Positions 60,173-64,000 of a DNA stretch of 64,000 nt are shown piece by piece. Every line of letters begins with the position of its first letter. The stretch's first letter is position 1. The notes under the pieces are model-generated. The model was not told the origin of the DNA. It made no database searches and saw only the letters and a program-made list of their open reading frames with translations. The stretch comes from a virus, in IMG/VR virus record IMGVR_UViG_3300008111_000001; one strand, given 5' to 3'. A program made the position numbers and the translations under genes.

Positions 60173-60499
60173 ATGAAACTAATTAAAAAGCTTGCAAGAA
60201 AATTGCTGTTTCCAAAAAAGAAGCAGTCACCAACCCCTGTTTTTCAGACTAAACCAACTACATCTGCCAATTCAGTCGCAGAACCAGTTATAAAGTTTGA
60301 GCAGCCAAAGGTTGGAGGTAGTGATTTAGATGACAAAAAGCCTGTATCTGATACCGAAACTTGTCTAGACAAAAAGCCTGCTACCAAAAAGCCTGGTAGA
60401 CCAAAAGGGCAAACAAGCAATTCTGCAAAGAAGCCTTCAGCAAAAAAGCCGGCAACCTATAAGCAGAATATGCAAAAAAACCAAAATAAAAATAAGTAA
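60173..60499 (+). CDS. Lys/Pro-rich basic protein (histone H1-like tail, AT-hook-like KPGRPK)
   Basis: KKPATKKPGRPKG...KKPSAKKPA; SD AGGAG. Confidence 0.6.
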   Translation: MKLIKKLARKLLFPKKKQSPTPVFQTKPTTSANSVAEPVIKFEQPKVGGSDLDDKKPVSDTETCLDKKPATKKPGRPKGQTSNSAKKPSAKKPATYKQNMQKNQNKNK

Positions 60500-60519: not shown

Positions 60520-60569
60520 AGACTAGTTATATGGCAGCAGAAATGTTACTATATAACTAGTCTTTTTTT
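60520..60569 (+). terminator. Long hairpin terminator containing a TTACTATA motif
   Basis: AGACTAGTTATAT/ATATAACTAGTCT perfect 13-bp arms, inner stem with GAAA loop, then a T-tract. Confidence 0.7.
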
Positions 60570-60588
60570 ATTGATAAGGTGGTTAATT

Positions 60589-60735
60589 ATGGCCGATAAA
60601 GGTTGGGGTAGTAAAACATCCTCAGAGAAGAATTATTACAAATTACTCAAAGATTCTGTTATGAATGTTATCGACACCAAGAAAACTGGTGGACAATATT
60701 CAAGCCATTGGACAAAAAATAAAAATGGCAAGTAA
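60589..60735 (+). CDS. Small basic protein (48 aa, not in ORF track)
   Basis: MADKGWGSKTSSEKNYYKLLKDSVMNVIDTKKTGGQYSSHWTKNKNGK; SD AAGGTGG. Confidence 0.6.
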   Translation: MADKGWGSKTSSEKNYYKLLKDSVMNVIDTKKTGGQYSSHWTKNKNGK

Positions 60736-60898
60736 GAAAAAGACAGCTTATCAAAAAAAGATTAAGTCTGTTATGGGTGAATACGGTAGAGGTACCCTGC
60801 ATTCCGGTAAGGGTGGTCCGGTAGTTAAGTCCAAGAAGCAAGCAATCGCTATTGCAATATCATCAGCTGGTAGATTGAAAAAGAAGCGCAAAAAATAA
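60725..60898 (+). CDS. Small basic protein (57 aa), DUF6496-like
   Basis: KIKSVMGEYGRGTLHSGKGGPVVKSKKQAIAIAIS matches a recalled EFK-x-G-x-LHSG...SRKQAIAIAL family pattern. Confidence 0.65.
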   Translation: MASKKKTAYQKKIKSVMGEYGRGTLHSGKGGPVVKSKKQAIAIAISSAGRLKKKRKK

Positions 60899-61005
60899 TG
60901 GCTTTGAAAAAATTTATTTATATAAGTGGACCAAGAATGGGTACAAATAATCAAAAATCTAATGGTCCTGTTTTAAAAAATAAAAAGCGTAGAAAGAAAA
61001 AGTAA
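60898..61005 (+). CDS. Micro basic protein (35 aa, not in ORF track)
   Basis: MALKKFIYISGPRMGTNNQKSNGPVLKNKKRRKKK; TAATG coupling at both ends. Confidence 0.6.
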   Translation: MALKKFIYISGPRMGTNNQKSNGPVLKNKKRRKKK

Positions 61006-61316
61006 TGGCAGCTAAAAAGGATCCACGCTTAGCAAGAGCTGGGGTAAGCGGTTTTAATAAACCAAAAAGAACACCTAGTCATCCAACTAAGTCTCACATT
61101 GTTGTAGCTAAATCTGGTGGCAAAGTTAAGACAATTCGCTTTGGTCAGCAGGGCGTAAAGACTAATCAAACCGTTGGTCAGAGGAAGGCTTTTGCCTCAC
61201 GCCACGCTAAGAATATATCTAAAGGACCTATGTCTGCAGCATACTGGGCCAATAAAGTTAAATGGAGTCCCAGTAAAACTCAGTCTCCCTCCAAAAAATG
61301 GGTTAAAGGATCTTGA
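61005..61316 (+). CDS. Basic protein of a widespread aquatic-virus family
   Basis: NKPKRTPSHPTKSHIVVA...IRFGQQG...RKAFASRH...SAAYWANKVKW; only one acidic residue in 103 aa. Confidence 0.7.
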   Translation: MAAKKDPRLARAGVSGFNKPKRTPSHPTKSHIVVAKSGGKVKTIRFGQQGVKTNQTVGQRKAFASRHAKNISKGPMSAAYWANKVKWSPSKTQSPSKKWVKGS

Positions 61317-61317
61317 G

Positions 61318-61581
61318 ATGGAAGCTGTCATTGTTGCAATAATAACCGCTATTGGTGGGATACTGATGGCCCTGGTTCAAAAGGGTCGCAAAGAAAACAA
61401 AAATGATCACAATGTTGTTGCGACAATGTTAATAGATGTCAAAGATGAAATAATTAATCTACATCACAAAATAGATCATGTAGACGAGCAGGTTGACAAA
61501 GTGGATGATCAAATGCATGATCACATGATGTGGCACTATCGTAAGTCAAGTGAAAACAAGAAGAAAAAAGAGGAGGTGTAA
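61318..61581 (+). CDS. Single-TM plus coiled-coil protein (holin/lysis-accessory-like)
   Basis: MEAVIVAIITAIGGILMALVQ, then a heptad-rich, His-rich C-terminus. Confidence 0.6.
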   Translation: MEAVIVAIITAIGGILMALVQKGRKENKNDHNVVATMLIDVKDEIINLHHKIDHVDEQVDKVDDQMHDHMMWHYRKSSENKKKKEEV

Positions 61582-61583
61582 TT

Positions 61584-61724
61584 ATGGCTGGTCACGTAGG
61601 AAACAAGAAGATGGGCGGTTCCAAGAAGATGGGCGGTTCCAAGAAAATGGGCGGTTCCAAGAAAATGGGCGGTTCCAAGAAGATGGGCGGTTCCAAGAAA
61701 ATGGGTGGCAAGAAGATGTACTGA
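61584..61724 (+). CDS. Repeat peptide MAGHVGN(KKMGGS)5KKMGGKKMY (46 aa, not in ORF track)
   Basis: Strong SD AGGAGG; repeat variants AAG/AAA are synonymous only in this frame. Confidence 0.75.
   Translation: MAGHVGNKKMGGSKKMGGSKKMGGSKKMGGSKKMGGSKKMGGKKMY
61605..61718 (+). repeat. 18-bp tandem repeat AAGAARATGGGCGGTTCC, five full copies plus two partial
   Basis: Direct inspection; no spacers between units. Confidence 0.95.
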
Positions 61725-61763
61725 AATTGATTTTCAGTCTTAGTTAAGATTAGAGGAATAGTT

Positions 61764-61895
61764 ATGGCTATGAAGAAGAAGGCAGCTGTCCCCAAAAAGG
61801 TGGCTTCAAAAAAAACAGCTGGTCTTACTCCAGCTCAAAAAAAACTTCCACCTTTTATACAAAAAGCTATCATGAATAAAAAGAAGAAGAAGTAA
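61764..61895 (+). CDS. Micro basic protein (43 aa, 15 Lys, no acidic residues; not in ORF track)
   Basis: MAMKKKAAVPKKVASKKTAGLTPAQKKLPPFIQKAIMNKKKKK; SD AGAGGA. Confidence 0.7.
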   Translation: MAMKKKAAVPKKVASKKTAGLTPAQKKLPPFIQKAIMNKKKKK

Positions 61896-61906
61896 TCTTC
61901 CTACTT

Positions 61907-61948
61907 AAGAGGGCTATGGCTGTAGTGTCATAGCCCTCTTTTTTATTT
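61907..61948 (+). terminator. Intrinsic terminator
   Basis: AAGAGGGCTATG...CATAGCCCTCTT followed by TTTTATTT. Confidence 0.8.
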
Positions 61949-61955
61949 TCTTAGA

Positions 61956-61963
61956 TTACTATA
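61956..61963 (+). promoter_or_regulatory. TTACTATA candidate promoter element
   Basis: Intergenic, just after the terminator and 32 nt before ATG 61996. Confidence 0.5.
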
Positions 61964-61995
61964 TCCTCTGCGGACAACTAGAAGACGAGGGAGAT

Positions 61996-63348
61996 ATGTC
62001 TAGAATTAAAAATATTTTATCAGCATTATTTATTGTTATAGGTGTAGGGTTATTTATTAATCCAGCAGGTCAAGCTCCAGTAGCTTTAGCCACCAGTGGT
62101 GGTGGTGGACCAATCGTTCTAGATGGAATGGACCCAGTATGCCATTCGGGGTGGGAAAGCACTGGACAATACATCGCAAAGGTTCTGAAGAAAGTGCATG
62201 ACGGCTCCAGAAACCTAAGCAACGGACACATTGCTATCATTGGCTCAAATGCCACTACAACTTCTTGTGGCTCCAACTGGTCCAGTCAGTTAAGCACACA
62301 ATTTCTAGCAGAGTTTCCTACTGCTCCACAGATAGATTTCTATATTACAGATTCAGAAATTAATACTTTCTTTAGCACTACAGTTACTTCTAATCCTCCA
62401 GCCGTATTATGGATACCAGATAACTGGAATCGCACATCCGGCACTGAAGCAATATTTACATCGAATGCAGAGAAAATAGCTGACTTTGTTAATGGTGGTG
62501 GCGGTCTTTTTGCCAATGCCGGTTCCTATGGGTGGTTGACAGCATTACTTCCCAACGCCGTTTATAATAATGGAGGATGCAATGGTGGACCAGAAGCTAC
62601 GACTGATGGGACAAATGATTTTGGATTAAGCAATACATTAGTTGCAGCTTGTTGGCATGGATATTTTACCGGTAATGTCGGCACACTAAAGACTCTTGTT
62701 GACTATCCATATAATCCAAATGATTCATCTGATATGACAGCATCGCGCAAAGCAGTATCCATTGGTGGCGGAAGCGTATCCCTACCAAGTTCATTCGTAC
62801 TATCATATAGTCCTGCAACCCCTCGTGCAGGTGAGCCAATTACTATTACAGCAACAGCTCAAACTTTAGCAGGTGTGCCACAAGCTGGTGTCACAGTGTC
62901 TATGACAGTTTCTTCTGGTCCAGATTCTGGACAGACTTTTACTGCAACAACCGATGCAAGCGGGGTGGCTAATATTACTGTTAACACGGCATCACAGGGC
63001 ACGGCTGTATATACAGCTAGCGCAACGGTTAATGGTGTTGTAAAAGTAGTTTCAATAACAGTTTTGTGGGATCCTCCAGCCCCAACAACGGTCCCAGTCA
63101 CAGAAGCTCCAACAACTGTGCCAGAAACAACTACGAGCACAGAAGCTCCTGTATTGGTTGAGCCAACCACAACAGTACACGACCATAGTAGTCACGATCA
63201 TGGAGTGGACACCACAGTGCAGGCACAGCTTCCTTTAACCGGCAGAGATACTAAGTCATCTATGGGTATCGGCGCTTTTCTGATTACTATAGGCATATCA
63301 ATGTTTATTTTAAATCGAAAGGTTTTAAGAAATGGCAAAACCAGCTGA
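61996..63348 (+). CDS. Secreted, sortase-anchored (LPxTG) surface protein with Ig-like domain and Pro/Thr linker
   Basis: N-terminal signal peptide; GATase/ThuA-like segment IADFVNGGGGLF; Big_1-like PITITAT...GVPQAGVTV...TTDASGVANIT; PT-rich linker; LPLTG plus hydrophobic stretch plus RKVLR tail; SD GAGGAG. Confidence 0.8.
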   Translation: MSRIKNILSALFIVIGVGLFINPAGQAPVALATSGGGGPIVLDGMDPVCHSGWESTGQYIAKVLKKVHDGSRNLSNGHIAIIGSNATTTSCGSNWSSQLSTQFLAEFPTAPQIDFYITDSEINTFFSTTVTSNPPAVLWIPDNWNRTSGTEAIFTSNAEKIADFVNGGGGLFANAGSYGWLTALLPNAVYNNGGCNGGPEATTDGTNDFGLSNTLVAACWHGYFTGNVGTLKTLVDYPYNPNDSSDMTASRKAVSIGGGSVSLPSSFVLSYSPATPRAGEPITITATAQTLAGVPQAGVTVSMTVSSGPDSGQTFTATTDASGVANITVNTASQGTAVYTASATVNGVVKVVSITVLWDPPAPTTVPVTEAPTTVPETTTSTEAPVLVEPTTTVHDHSSHDHGVDTTVQAQLPLTGRDTKSSMGIGAFLITIGISMFILNRKVLRNGKTS

Positions 63349-63535
63349 TAAAAAATGGATCCAAAAGGCAATCAAAAGACCTGGCGCCTTTACCGCTAAA
63401 GCTAAAAAGCGAAAAATGACAGTAGCCGGTTTCGCAGCTGCCGTAAAAAAGAATCCACAAAAATATGATACAAGAACAGTACGTCAAGCTAATTTGGCTA
63501 CAACGTTAAGAAAAATTTCTAAAAAGAAGAAGTGA
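63332..63535 (+). CDS. Small basic protein (67 aa)
   Basis: KKWIQKAIKRPGAFTAKAKK...RQANLATTLRKISKKKK. Confidence 0.7.
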   Translation: MAKPADKKWIQKAIKRPGAFTAKAKKRKMTVAGFAAAVKKNPQKYDTRTVRQANLATTLRKISKKKK

Positions 63536-63548
63536 ATAGGAGATTATT

Positions 63549-64000
63549 GTGATATACCCTTATATTAAACTCGTTGTTCCTACAGCATTAAAGGCCCATA
63601 AAAATGGACAACTTCCAGCTAATTTGTTGGCTAAGGTAAAAACTGGTGGACAGATGTATGCCCCGGTGGCTGCACAGTTTGACAAGATGTACGACGCAGC
63701 ACTTGCTGCCGGATACAAGCTGGTCAATGTTGGCGATTACCGTTCTTTTGAGGGCCAGCTATCCATGTTTATGGATCGCTATACTACAACTGATCAGGGT
63801 CGCAAGCCTCAGGTGACACGTCAATATGAGGGTAAGACTTGGTACCTTAAGCCAGGTAAGGCCCCTTCAGCTGCTCCTGATCCCACTGGACTTAAGGGAT
63901 CTAACCACGGTTGGGGTATCGCAATTGATCTCGGCTATAAAGACGCAGCTGGCAAAACTGCAAGCATGGGCGGTGCATGTTTTGAATGGATGTGCGCTAA
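63549..64000 (+). CDS. Endolysin, M15B/VanY-like peptidase (3' truncated; not in ORF track)
   Basis: GTG after AGGAG; KNGQLPANLL...GDYRSFEGQ...SNHGWGIAIDL (R...S-x-H-x6-D motif); frame open to the window end. Confidence 0.85.
   Translation, partial: MIYPYIKLVVPTALKAHKNGQLPANLLAKVKTGGQMYAPVAAQFDKMYDAALAAGYKLVNVGDYRSFEGQLSMFMDRYTTTDQGRKPQVTRQYEGKTWYLKPGKAPSAAPDPTGLKGSNHGWGIAIDLGYKDAAGKTASMGGACFEWMCA

What the first reader, a model, noticed from the sequence alone, without database searches (positions are those of the whole stretch)
60589..61895. Operon of translationally coupled, extremely basic micro-proteins: candidate protamine/histone-like genome-condensation system
At least six ORFs of 35-103 aa lie between a TTACTATA motif and a strong terminator; most are missed or misread by the ORF track. 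Several have about 30-35% Lys/Arg and zero or one acidic residue, and they are linked by overlaps including TAATG. Similar proteins flank the operon (60173, 63332). Such a battery could neutralise and compact a very large genome inside the capsid, coat DNA after ejection, or bind ribosomes or RNA.
Basis: partly seen in the sequence, partly recalled or inferred. Interest (0 to 1): 0.7.

Follow-up and report, generated by a model that had tools for sequence, protein, structure and literature searches.

The report
Array of small basic phage proteins
A roughly 194-kb uncultured lake phage carries a real, conserved run of about eleven genes for tiny, strongly positively charged proteins, built from modules shared by thousands of aquatic phages. 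They probably bind DNA and are probably loaded into the phage head, but they cannot work as a protamine-like system that neutralises the whole genome.

Summary
Seven packed or overlapping genes (48, 57, 35, 103, 87, 46 and 43 aa) lie between a TTACTATA motif and a 14-bp-stem terminator. Six are very basic; the fifth is a membrane and coiled-coil protein.

- **Genes are real:** pN/pS is 0.09-0.27 against relatives.
- **Larger array:** they belong to a conserved array of about eleven genes. Here it is split by an inserted LPXTG surface-protein gene and a lysis cassette.
- **A pool of modules:** DUF6496, PHROG 7595, PHROG 20603, DUF5872-like pieces, a KKMGGS repeat and an AT-hook-bearing protein. 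They are fused, split and shuffled in other phages, including 35-55-kb podoviruses.
- **103-aa protein:** it is predicted to be folded (pLDDT 85). It is homologous to the C-terminal domain of the XkdF-type prohead protease of Vibrio phage ICP1.

Best reading (about 0.4): late-made, nucleic-acid-binding proteins carried in the head. The strict protamine idea fails on three counts: full neutralisation would need more protein than DNA by mass, the modules are not tied to large genomes, and at least one is a folded domain.

No experiment or expression data exist. Unchecked notes from this scan describe similar arrays on other DNA, so this is another example of something the scan has already seen.

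The parts
60173..60499 (+). First array gene: 108-aa basic protein (net +19) with an AT-hook-like P-G-R-P-K-G motif near the C-terminus
   Evidence: ORF. Counterparts in relatives diverge, but 38 of 43 distinct ones keep K-(P/K)-G-R-P-K-(G/K). pN/pS 0.22.
60520..60570 (+). Intrinsic terminator hairpin plus T-run of the upstream gene; its 3' arm contains the TTACTATA motif
   Evidence: RNA fold -26.8 kcal/mol, z = -6.5.
60546..60553 (+). TTACTATA promoter-like motif, 43 nt upstream of the O1 start
   Evidence: Conserved 33-48 nt (up to about 100 nt) upstream of the first array gene in at least 35 of 60 distinct relatives. The same 8-mer lies 53 nt upstream of the tail sheath gene.
60589..60735 (+). 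O1, 48 aa, mildly basic (net +6), no known family
   Evidence: SD-like AAGGTGG upstream. Found in 32 relative loci. pN/pS 0.14.
60725..60898 (+). O2, 57 aa, net +17, Pfam DUF6496
   Evidence: PF20106 E 3.7e-9, 37.2 bits against a cut-off of 24. 1,525 relatives, the listed ones on contigs of at most about 210 kb. pN/pS 0.15.
60898..61005 (+). O3, 35 aa, net +12, conserved I-Y-I-S-G-P-R-M-G-T-N-N core, TAATG-coupled on both sides
   Evidence: Found in 57 relative loci. pN/pS 0.20. L018 counterpart.
61005..61316 (+). O4, 103 aa, net +23, PHROG 7595. Predicted folded alpha/beta domain, homologous to the C-terminal domain of XkdF-type prohead proteases
   Evidence: phrog_7595 E 3.7e-33. AF2 pLDDT 85.4, pTM 0.72. 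hhalign to ICP1 ORF125 residues 189-265: probability 95.4%, E 1.7e-8. At least 8,000 90%-identity clusters. pN/pS 0.09.
61318..61581 (+). O5, 87 aa, not basic: N-terminal membrane helix plus acidic His/Asp-rich helical tail, PHROG 32850
   Evidence: phrog_32850 E 1.4e-13; weak holin, spanin and membrane-protein hits. Found in 79 relative loci. pN/pS 0.26.
61584..61724 (+). O6, 46 aa, net +14, six tandem M-G-G-S-K-K units
   Evidence: Strong SD GAGGAGG. Relatives keep a variable-copy KKMG(G/S)S protein ending in GGKKMY. In some lineages the repeat is fused to the O7 module.
61764..61895 (+). O7, 43 aa, net +15, conserved A-Q-K-K-L-P-P-F-I-Q-K-A-I core and poly-Lys tail
   Evidence: Found in 63 relative loci. 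pN/pS 0.17. Sequences.
61907..61950 (+). Intrinsic terminator closing the O1-O7 unit
   Evidence: 14-bp stem with 7 GC pairs, followed by a T-run.
61956..63348 (+). Insertion in the array: a second TTACTATA (61956-61963) plus a 450-aa LPXTG-anchored surface protein gene (61996-63348). Not a basic-array member.
   Evidence: Big_1-like Ig domain and weak LPXTG anchor hits. Present in only 13 relative loci and absent from L018-type relatives, where the array is uninterrupted.
63284..63291 (+). Third TTACTATA, 48 nt upstream of the O67 start, inside the end of the LPXTG gene
   Evidence: Conserved at 48 nt (or 90 nt) before O67 in 8 distinct relatives.
63332..63535 (+). O67, 67 aa, net +20, PHROG 20603, predicted four-helix protein
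   Evidence: phrog_20603 E 1.2e-22. 61% identical to Thermus phage P23-45 gp111. AF2 pLDDT 75. Directly follows O7 in L018. pN/pS 0.25.
63549..64000 (+). Start of a lysis cassette inserted in the array: VanY/M15 peptidase with a PG-binding domain. Two small membrane proteins follow, then the last array genes D58 and D92 beyond the window (genome 123048-123509).
   Evidence: PF02557 E 3.6e-15 and PF01471 E 4.1e-11. D58 is DUF5872-like and D92 is phrog_23735. In L018, D58 and D92 follow O67 directly.

Best explanation
The region is one transcription unit (TTACTATA motif, seven coupled genes, strong terminator) inside a lineage-conserved array of about eleven genes for small, strongly cationic proteins. 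Each gene encodes a different small module drawn from a pool that aquatic phages fuse, split and shuffle.

I think these are nucleic-acid-binding proteins, most likely DNA-binding, made late in infection. I think they are loaded into the head, where they sit with the packaged DNA as minor cargo. There they would screen or organise part of the DNA and could enter the next host with it.

Shown here:
- the genes are real and conserved;
- the array and its promoter-like motif are conserved;
- the modules are fused to one another in other phages;
- O4 is predicted to fold;
- O4 is homologous to the C-terminal domain of a prohead protease;
- one member keeps an AT-hook-like motif.

Inferred only: late timing, packaging into the head, and DNA binding.
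For: 1. Real genes: pN/pS 0.09-0.27. They form the only such cluster in the genome.
2. One array: the 202-kb relative L018 carries the AT-hook protein, O2, O3, O4, O5, an O6-like gene, O7, O67, D58 and D92 in an unbroken run. 79 relative loci keep it between the dNMP kinase and exonuclease genes.
3. Late-type signal: TTACTATA is conserved in front of the array in at least 35 of 60 distinct relatives. It also precedes the tail sheath gene.
4. Link to the head interior: O4 is homologous to residues 189-265 of ICP1 ORF125 (hhalign 95.4%, E 1.7e-8). That protein carries the Pfam XkdF prohead-protease domain and is encoded between the portal and capsid genes. O4 also matches part of PHROG 220, 'minor head protein and DNA pilot' (E 2.2e-5). 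BFVD fold hits include proteins named XkdF and ChaB.
5. Context in cultured phages is late or structural. It is the last gene of the virion-plus-lysis arm in SIO1 and P12053L. It lies inside the head module of S-CBS2 and near a virion structural protein in HMO-2011. The O67 homologue gp111 lies in the late region of P23-45.
6. Modularity: P0122 and P0132 join D58-like, D92-like and O4 modules in one chain. Syn9 gp114, encoded among neck and terminase genes, holds D92-like (E 8e-5) and D58-like (E 4e-6) modules.
7. DNA-binding hint: the AT-hook-like G-R-P core is kept in 38 of 43 divergent counterparts of the first array gene.
8. O4 is 65-89% identical across phages with unrelated virions and hosts. 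That fits a universal ligand such as DNA.
Against: - There is no proteomic, expression or binding evidence for any of these proteins. I could not verify the lead that related modular proteins were detected in virions.
- The array lies next to replication genes, not in the head module of this phage.
- TTACTATA is only about twofold enriched in the window: 10 found against 5.0 +/- 2.3 expected. Its temporal class rests on one structural gene.
- The phage has no XkdF protease, so the docking logic cannot be transferred directly.
- Very high conservation across phages with different capsids argues against capsid-specific docking. It fits a conserved host target equally well.
- O5 is a membrane protein, and lysis genes are interleaved here.
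- Neither predicted fold matched a known DNA-binding structure.
Confidence: 0.4

Rival explanations
1. Cytoplasmic host-takeover factors that are never packaged. In this reading the small basic proteins bind a conserved host component (ribosome, rRNA, mRNA, nucleoid or RNA polymerase) late in infection, much as phage-encoded ribosomal protein bS21 is thought to act.
For: - O4 is 65-89% identical in phages of Roseobacter, Synechococcus, SAR116, Vibrio and this lake phage. O67 is 61% identical to a Thermus phage protein. This suggests a universal target rather than a phage-specific structure.
- Phage bS21 is reported as a late-expressed small basic protein (bioRxiv 10.1101/2021.10.11.463225, listed; abstract only read).
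- An unchecked scan note reports an anti-23S hairpin in this same genome.
Against: - No member matches any ribosomal-protein or RNA-binding Pfam family at E <= 1.
- O4 occurs as the C-terminal domain of a prohead protease and inside a 'minor head protein' PHROG.
- Gene context in cultured phages is structural or late.
Confidence: 0.2
2. No shared function. The stretch is a hot spot where small, independently acting accessory genes accumulate, and their basic composition reflects several unrelated jobs.
For: - The members are unrelated in sequence and belong to different families.
- A membrane protein (O5), an LPXTG gene and a lysis cassette sit among them.
- Order and content vary between lineages.
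Against: - The same families co-occur next to each other in unrelated phages: O2 with O4 in 12 loci, and D58 or D92 with O4 in about 11.
- They are fused into single chains elsewhere.
- All genuine basic micro-proteins of the genome lie in this one stretch.
- The array keeps a conserved promoter-like motif.
Confidence: 0.2
3. One reading: a protamine/histone-like system that neutralises and condenses the unusually large genome inside the capsid.
For: - Extreme Lys/Arg content and poly-Lys tails.
- AT-hook-like motif.
- In several relatives an S-adenosylmethionine decarboxylase gene (polyamine synthesis) follows the array directly (PF02675, E 5.2e-13).
Against: - Neutralising about 420,000 phosphates needs about 2,600 copies of each of ten proteins. 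That is 187 MDa of protein against 137 MDa of DNA.
- The modules occur in 35-57-kb phages.
- O4 is a folded domain, and the proteins are Lys-rich rather than Arg-rich.
Confidence: 0.1
4. Lysis accessories: cationic, membrane- or wall-active small proteins acting with the endolysin and holin. This is comparable in principle to the cationic lysis peptide gp28 of phage phiKT (my own knowledge).
For: - An M15 endolysin and two small membrane proteins lie inside the array here.
- O4 follows the lysis genes in SIO1 and P12053L.
- P23-45 gp111 follows the endolysin and holin.
- O5 has weak holin and spanin-like PHROG hits.
Against: - In L018-type relatives the array has no lysis genes, so the interleaving is a lineage-specific insertion.
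- O4 is a folded, non-amphipathic domain.
- The LPXTG gene hints at a Gram-positive-type host without an outer membrane to disrupt.
Confidence: 0.07

Closest known systems
Phage T4 internal proteins IPI, IPII, IPIII (own knowledge)
   Same: They are small, basic, late proteins carried inside the head with the DNA in sub-stoichiometric amounts and injected with it. This is the working model proposed here.
   Different: The N-termini here read M-A-x-K-K, with no T4-type capsid-targeting sequence or L/I-x-E cleavage site. There is no sequence similarity. There are ten or more different modules rather than three. Packaging has not been shown.
C-terminal domain of XkdF-type prohead proteases (Pfam PF14550 proteins, e.g. 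Vibrio phage ICP1 ORF125)
   Same: O4 is homologous to ICP1 ORF125 residues 189-265 (hhalign 95.4%, E 1.7e-8). It shares the G-x-N-K-P, I-R-F-G and S-x-x-Y-W motifs.
   Different: O4 stands alone and has no protease domain. This phage has no XkdF protease. I found no reported function for that C-terminal domain.
Syn9 gp114-type modular basic proteins of T4-like cyanophages
   Same: They contain D92-like and D58-like modules in one chain and are encoded among neck and terminase genes. The family is found in 490 phage records.
   Different: There it is one 443-aa chain, here separate genes. It has no O4 module and carries DUF6321 at the C-terminus. The virion detection claimed in an earlier scan note could not be verified.
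Protamine-like viral core proteins (adenovirus pVII, baculovirus P6.9; PMC3281028, PMC6163548)
   Same: They are small, very basic and proposed to bind the viral genome.
   Different: Those are Arg-rich, abundant enough to neutralise much of the genome, and belong to viruses that pack DNA less densely. Here stoichiometry forbids full neutralisation, and at least O4 is folded.
Pfam DUF6496, DUF5872 and DUF5754; PHROGs 7595, 20603, 23735, 27331, 32850
   Same: O2, O4, O67, D92, D58 and O5 are members or near-members. DUF5872 and DUF5754 are also annotated in a giant algal virus (PMC12085832).
   Different: All of these are families of unknown function, so membership gives no mechanism.

Membership tests
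Pfam DUF6496 (PF20106) | Profile match above the curated cut-off | tested here: met
   O2: 37.2 bits against a cut-off of 24, E 3.7e-9. Confirmed on the genome.
PHROG 7595 | Full-length profile match | tested here: met
   O4: E 3.7e-33, profile positions 2-96 of 96.
PHROG 20603 | Full-length profile match | tested here: met
   O67: E 1.2e-22, profile positions 2-59 of 59.
Pfam DUF5872 (PF19197) | Profile match above the curated cut-off | tested here: inconclusive
   D58: 21.2 bits against a cut-off of 27.5, profile positions 1-40 only. D92 has no Pfam hit, but its nearest Atlas clusters carry DUF5872.
XkdF-type prohead protease (PF14550) | Serine-protease domain | tested here: not met
   The genome has no PF14550 match at E <= 1. 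O4 aligns only to the non-protease C-terminal domain.
XkdF-type prohead protease (PF14550) | Homology to the C-terminal appendage of ICP1 ORF125 | tested here: met
   hhalign probability 95.4%, E 1.7e-8, 76 columns. Foldseek BFVD E 1.9e-3.
T4-type internal head proteins | N-terminal capsid-targeting sequence removed by the prohead protease | tested here: not met
   The N-termini read M-A-x-K-K or similar. No T4-like targeting sequence or L/I-x-E site was seen by inspection.
T4-type internal head proteins | Presence inside mature heads and injection with the DNA | not testable with these tools
   This needs virion proteomics. No proteomic record was found.
Protamine/histone-like viral DNA-condensing proteins | Enough copies to neutralise a large share of genome charge | tested here: not met
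   By calculation, about 2,600 copies of each of ten proteins, or 187 MDa against 137 MDa of DNA.
Protamine/histone-like viral DNA-condensing proteins | Arg-rich, largely unstructured polycation, or a histone fold | tested here: not met
   The proteins are Lys-rich. O4 is predicted to be a compact alpha/beta domain (pLDDT 85) and O67 a helical protein. There is no histone or HU Pfam hit.
AT-hook DNA-binding motif | G-R-P core flanked by Lys/Arg/Pro | tested here: met
   The 108-aa protein has K-K-P-G-R-P-K-G. The motif is kept in 38 of 43 distinct counterparts. DNA binding itself was not tested.
Ribosomal proteins (e.g. bS21) | Match to a ribosomal-protein profile | tested here: not met
   No ribosomal Pfam family at E <= 1 for any member.

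The most novel reading that the evidence does not exclude
Aquatic tailed phages, from 35-kb podoviruses to 200-kb myoviruses, share a mobile toolkit of small folded DNA-binding modules. Two of the module families are also annotated in giant algal viruses. These modules would be packaged with the genome as a rudimentary phage 'chromatin' or genome-escort set. O4 would be the free form of a domain that also tethers prohead proteases and minor head proteins to the DNA or the head interior.
Probability: 0.2. Interest if true: 0.75.

Novelty: new variant of a known kind. Interest (0 to 1): 0.5.

Why it matters
The 103-aa module alone has at least 8,000 90%-identity clusters. It is 65-89% identical across unrelated phages, yet it has no Pfam family, no solved structure and no reported function.

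If these modules are packaged with the DNA, tailed phages would carry a more varied protein cargo than the few model cases suggest. That would bear on genome ejection, early protection from host defences and capsid physics.

If they instead act on ribosomes or the host nucleoid, they would be a large unexplored class of host-takeover factors.

Either way, cultured carriers exist, so the question can be tested now. They include SIO1, P12053L, ICBM2, S-CBS2, HMO-2011, P23-45 and ICP1.

The work also shows that standard gene calling misses or misreads several of these genes. One example is the unannotated copy in SIO1.

Tried and rejected
- **PDB sequence searches.** O4, O67 and O2 as single sequences, and the O4 and O67 profiles, gave nothing.
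- **Fold searches against solved structures.** O4 by Foldseek: best E 1.1. O4 by VIA wide: best Z 2.4. O67 by Foldseek: best E 9.2. No usable match.
- **Fusion partners.** Pfam and PHROG scans of 60 fusion partners of O4 found almost nothing. There was one NUDIX and one DUF5824.
- **Large fusion proteins.** tblastn of P0226 and P0178 against cultured phages matched only the O4 module.
- **Other small proteins.** tblastn of D58 and O2 against the phage collection found nothing.
- **Virion detection in the literature.** There were no papers for P23-45 gp111 or Syn9 gp114. The Cobavirus paper has no proteomics. Supplements of PMC3037559 and PMC10770324 held no usable entry. PMC2440725 is not held. 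The earlier-note claim that related modular proteins were detected in virions therefore stays unverified.
- **RNA evidence.** No RNA holder was listed.
- **Overlapping ORF rejected.** The 65-aa ORF at 61550-61747, in another frame over O6, is rejected. It has no SD, and the O6 frame is the one conserved in relatives.
- **Complex prediction not used.** No specific pair was well enough motivated.
Full report
**Setting.** The window is bases 58192-122191 of a 193,906-bp IMG/VR virus record judged about 92% complete. The phage has a contractile tail: a tail sheath gene and a major head protein gene were identified. Replication genes lie just upstream of the finding. They include a DnaE-like polymerase, RNase H and a dNMP kinase.

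**The observation.** Reading the sequence and ORFs gives seven + strand genes.
- O1 60589-60735 (48 aa)
- O2 60725-60898 (57 aa)
- O3 60898-61005 (35 aa)
- O4 61005-61316 (103 aa)
- O5 61318-61581 (87 aa)
- O6 61584-61724 (46 aa)
- O7 61764-61895 (43 aa)

O1/O2 overlap by 11 nt. O2/O3 and O3/O4 share TAATG. O4/O5 and O5/O6 are 1-2 nt apart. Six of the seven have net charges of +6 to +23 and pI 9.8-12.0. O5 is the exception, with a membrane helix and an acidic tail.

TTACTATA lies at 60546-60553. It sits in the 3' arm of a strong terminator hairpin that ends the preceding gene (-26.8 kcal/mol, z = -6.5). A terminator with a 14-bp stem follows O7. A plain ORF listing misreads the starts of O1, O2 and O5, and at 60 aa it would drop four of the genes.

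**The genes are real.** A census of the whole genome puts every convincing small basic ORF in one 5.2-kb stretch, genome 118364-123509. Against 79 related loci, pN/pS is 0.09-0.27 for O1-O5, O7, O67, D58, D92 and the upstream 108-aa gene, with pS at 0.58-0.76. O6 is kept as a KKMG(G/S)S repeat protein with varying copy number and a fixed GGKKMY end. In some lineages the repeat is fused to the O7 module.

**True extent.** In a 202-kb relative (L018) the same genes form one unbroken run. The order is an AT-hook-bearing protein, a 34-aa ORF, O2, O3, O4, O5, an O6-like gene, O7, O67, D58, D92 and a small acidic protein. In this phage and its nearest relatives the run is split by two insertions. 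One is an LPXTG surface-protein gene. The other is a lysis cassette of a VanY/M15 peptidase with a PG-binding domain plus two small membrane proteins. The finding is therefore the first operon of an array of about eleven genes.

TTACTATA stays in front of the first array gene in at least 35 of 60 distinct relatives, and in front of the LPXTG and O67 genes. The same 8-mer lies 53 nt upstream of the tail sheath gene. This is my only basis for calling the motif late. Overall enrichment is modest: 10 found against 5.0 +/- 2.3 expected.

**What the proteins are.** They are unrelated to one another.
- **O2:** Pfam DUF6496.
- **O4:** PHROG 7595. **O5:** PHROG 32850. **O67:** PHROG 20603.
- **D58:** a sub-threshold DUF5872 match. 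**D92:** PHROG 23735, with Atlas neighbours that carry DUF5872.
- **O4's family is huge.** It has more than 600 IMG/VR loci, at least 8,000 90%-identity clusters and 1,111 50%-identity representatives.
- **O4 in cultured phages.** It occurs in phages of Roseobacter, Celeribacter, Lentibacter, SAR116, Synechococcus, Prochlorococcus and Vibrio. It is unannotated in SIO1.
- **O67** is 61% identical to Thermus phage P23-45 gp111.
- **D92** has relatives in pelagiphages.
- **The upstream 108-aa protein** diverges fast, but 38 of 43 distinct counterparts keep a K-(P/K)-G-R-P-K-(G/K) AT-hook-like motif.

**Modularity and the head link.** Many O4 relatives are fusions. P0122 and P0132 join D58-like, D92-like and O4 modules in one chain. 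Others carry O4 at the end of 600-1,100-aa proteins with no known domain.

Syn9 gp114 is encoded among neck and terminase genes. It contains D92-like (E 8e-5) and D58-like (E 4e-6) modules.

AlphaFold2 predicts O4 as a compact alpha/beta domain (pLDDT 85.4, pTM 0.72). It has no match among solved structures. Among predicted viral structures it matches Vibrio phage ICP1 ORF125 and proteins named XkdF and ChaB.

I checked the ICP1 match directly. ORF125 lies between the portal and capsid genes and carries the XkdF prohead-protease domain at residues 36-160. Its residues 189-265 align to the O4 profile with 95.4% probability, E 1.7e-8. O4 also matches part of PHROG 220, 'minor head protein and DNA pilot'. 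This phage has no XkdF protease and only one O4 copy. O67 is predicted to be helical (pLDDT 75) with no structural match.

**Context elsewhere.** The O4 homologue is the last gene of the virion-plus-lysis arm in SIO1 and P12053L (arm layout from PMC6775973). It lies inside the head module of S-CBS2 and near a virion structural protein in HMO-2011. In Vibrio phage D274 it ends an operon behind a very large protein. P23-45 gp111 follows the endolysin and holin.

**Mechanism.** My best reading, at about 0.4, is late-made nucleic-acid-binding proteins carried in the head as minor cargo.

The strict protamine model fails on arithmetic. Neutralising about 420,000 phosphates needs about 2,600 copies of each of ten proteins. 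That is 187 MDa of protein against 137 MDa of DNA. The literature also notes that dense phage packaging leaves little room for such proteins (PMC3281028). The modules are not a large-genome feature either.

The strongest rival, at about 0.2, is a conserved host target such as the ribosome. The very high conservation across phages with unrelated capsids fits that reading as well as it fits DNA binding. Two further rivals, a mere hot spot of small accessory genes and lysis accessories, are treated in the Rival explanations section.

**Novelty and earlier notes.** Unchecked notes from this scan describe the same kind of array on other genomes and on this stretch.
- I confirmed that modules occur fused in one chain elsewhere, and that PHROG 7595 belongs to such arrays.
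- I could not confirm the reported detection in virions.
- The homology of O4 to the prohead-protease C-terminal domain appeared in none of the notes or papers I saw. The same is true of the conserved AT-hook motif.

**Limits.** No RNA run held the stretch.

Noticed in passing
window 61996-63348: A 450-aa phage-encoded protein with a signal peptide, an Ig-like (Big_1) domain, a Pro/Thr-rich linker and an LPLTG sorting motif plus membrane anchor. It has its own TTACTATA motif and is present in only some relatives. It suggests a Gram-positive-type (perhaps actinobacterial) host and a phage-made cell-surface protein.
   Followed up: partly
L018:5883-6281 (also L143, L146, L123, L119, L164): In several relatives an S-adenosylmethionine decarboxylase gene (PF02675, E 5.2e-13; polyamine synthesis) directly follows the basic-protein array. 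It is absent from this genome.
   Followed up: partly
L084:5001-5282 (NC_002519.1 23996-24277, minus strand): The model roseophage SIO1 has an unannotated homologue of the 103-aa protein (55% identity, E 2e-20). It lies at the end of the late arm.
   Followed up: partly
window 60520-60570: The TTACTATA motif sits inside the 3' arm of the upstream gene's terminator hairpin. A transcript started there could not form the hairpin, which makes this a possible combined terminator-promoter.
   Followed up: partly
window 61584-61724: An 18-nt tandem repeat encodes six M-G-G-S-K-K units. Copy number and unit spelling differ between relatives, and the repeat is fused to the next module in some lineages.
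   Followed up: yes
L002:2510-2713 (genome 123509-123715): A small acidic protein (68 aa) closes the array in 51 relative loci and evolves faster than the basic members (pN/pS 0.51). It might be a partner or chaperone of the basic proteins.
   Followed up: no
L002:6250-6453 (genome 127249-127452): Another small basic protein (67 aa) with a C-x-x-C ... C-x-x-x-C zinc-ribbon-like end (weak LIM and YacG hits). It lies behind a further TTACTATA motif, 3.7 kb past the array.
   Followed up: no
window 63332-63535 and L086:2495-2674: A lake phage and the hot-spring Thermus phage P23-45 (gp111) share a 58-residue stretch at 61% identity. That is unusually close for such distant viruses.
   Followed up: partly
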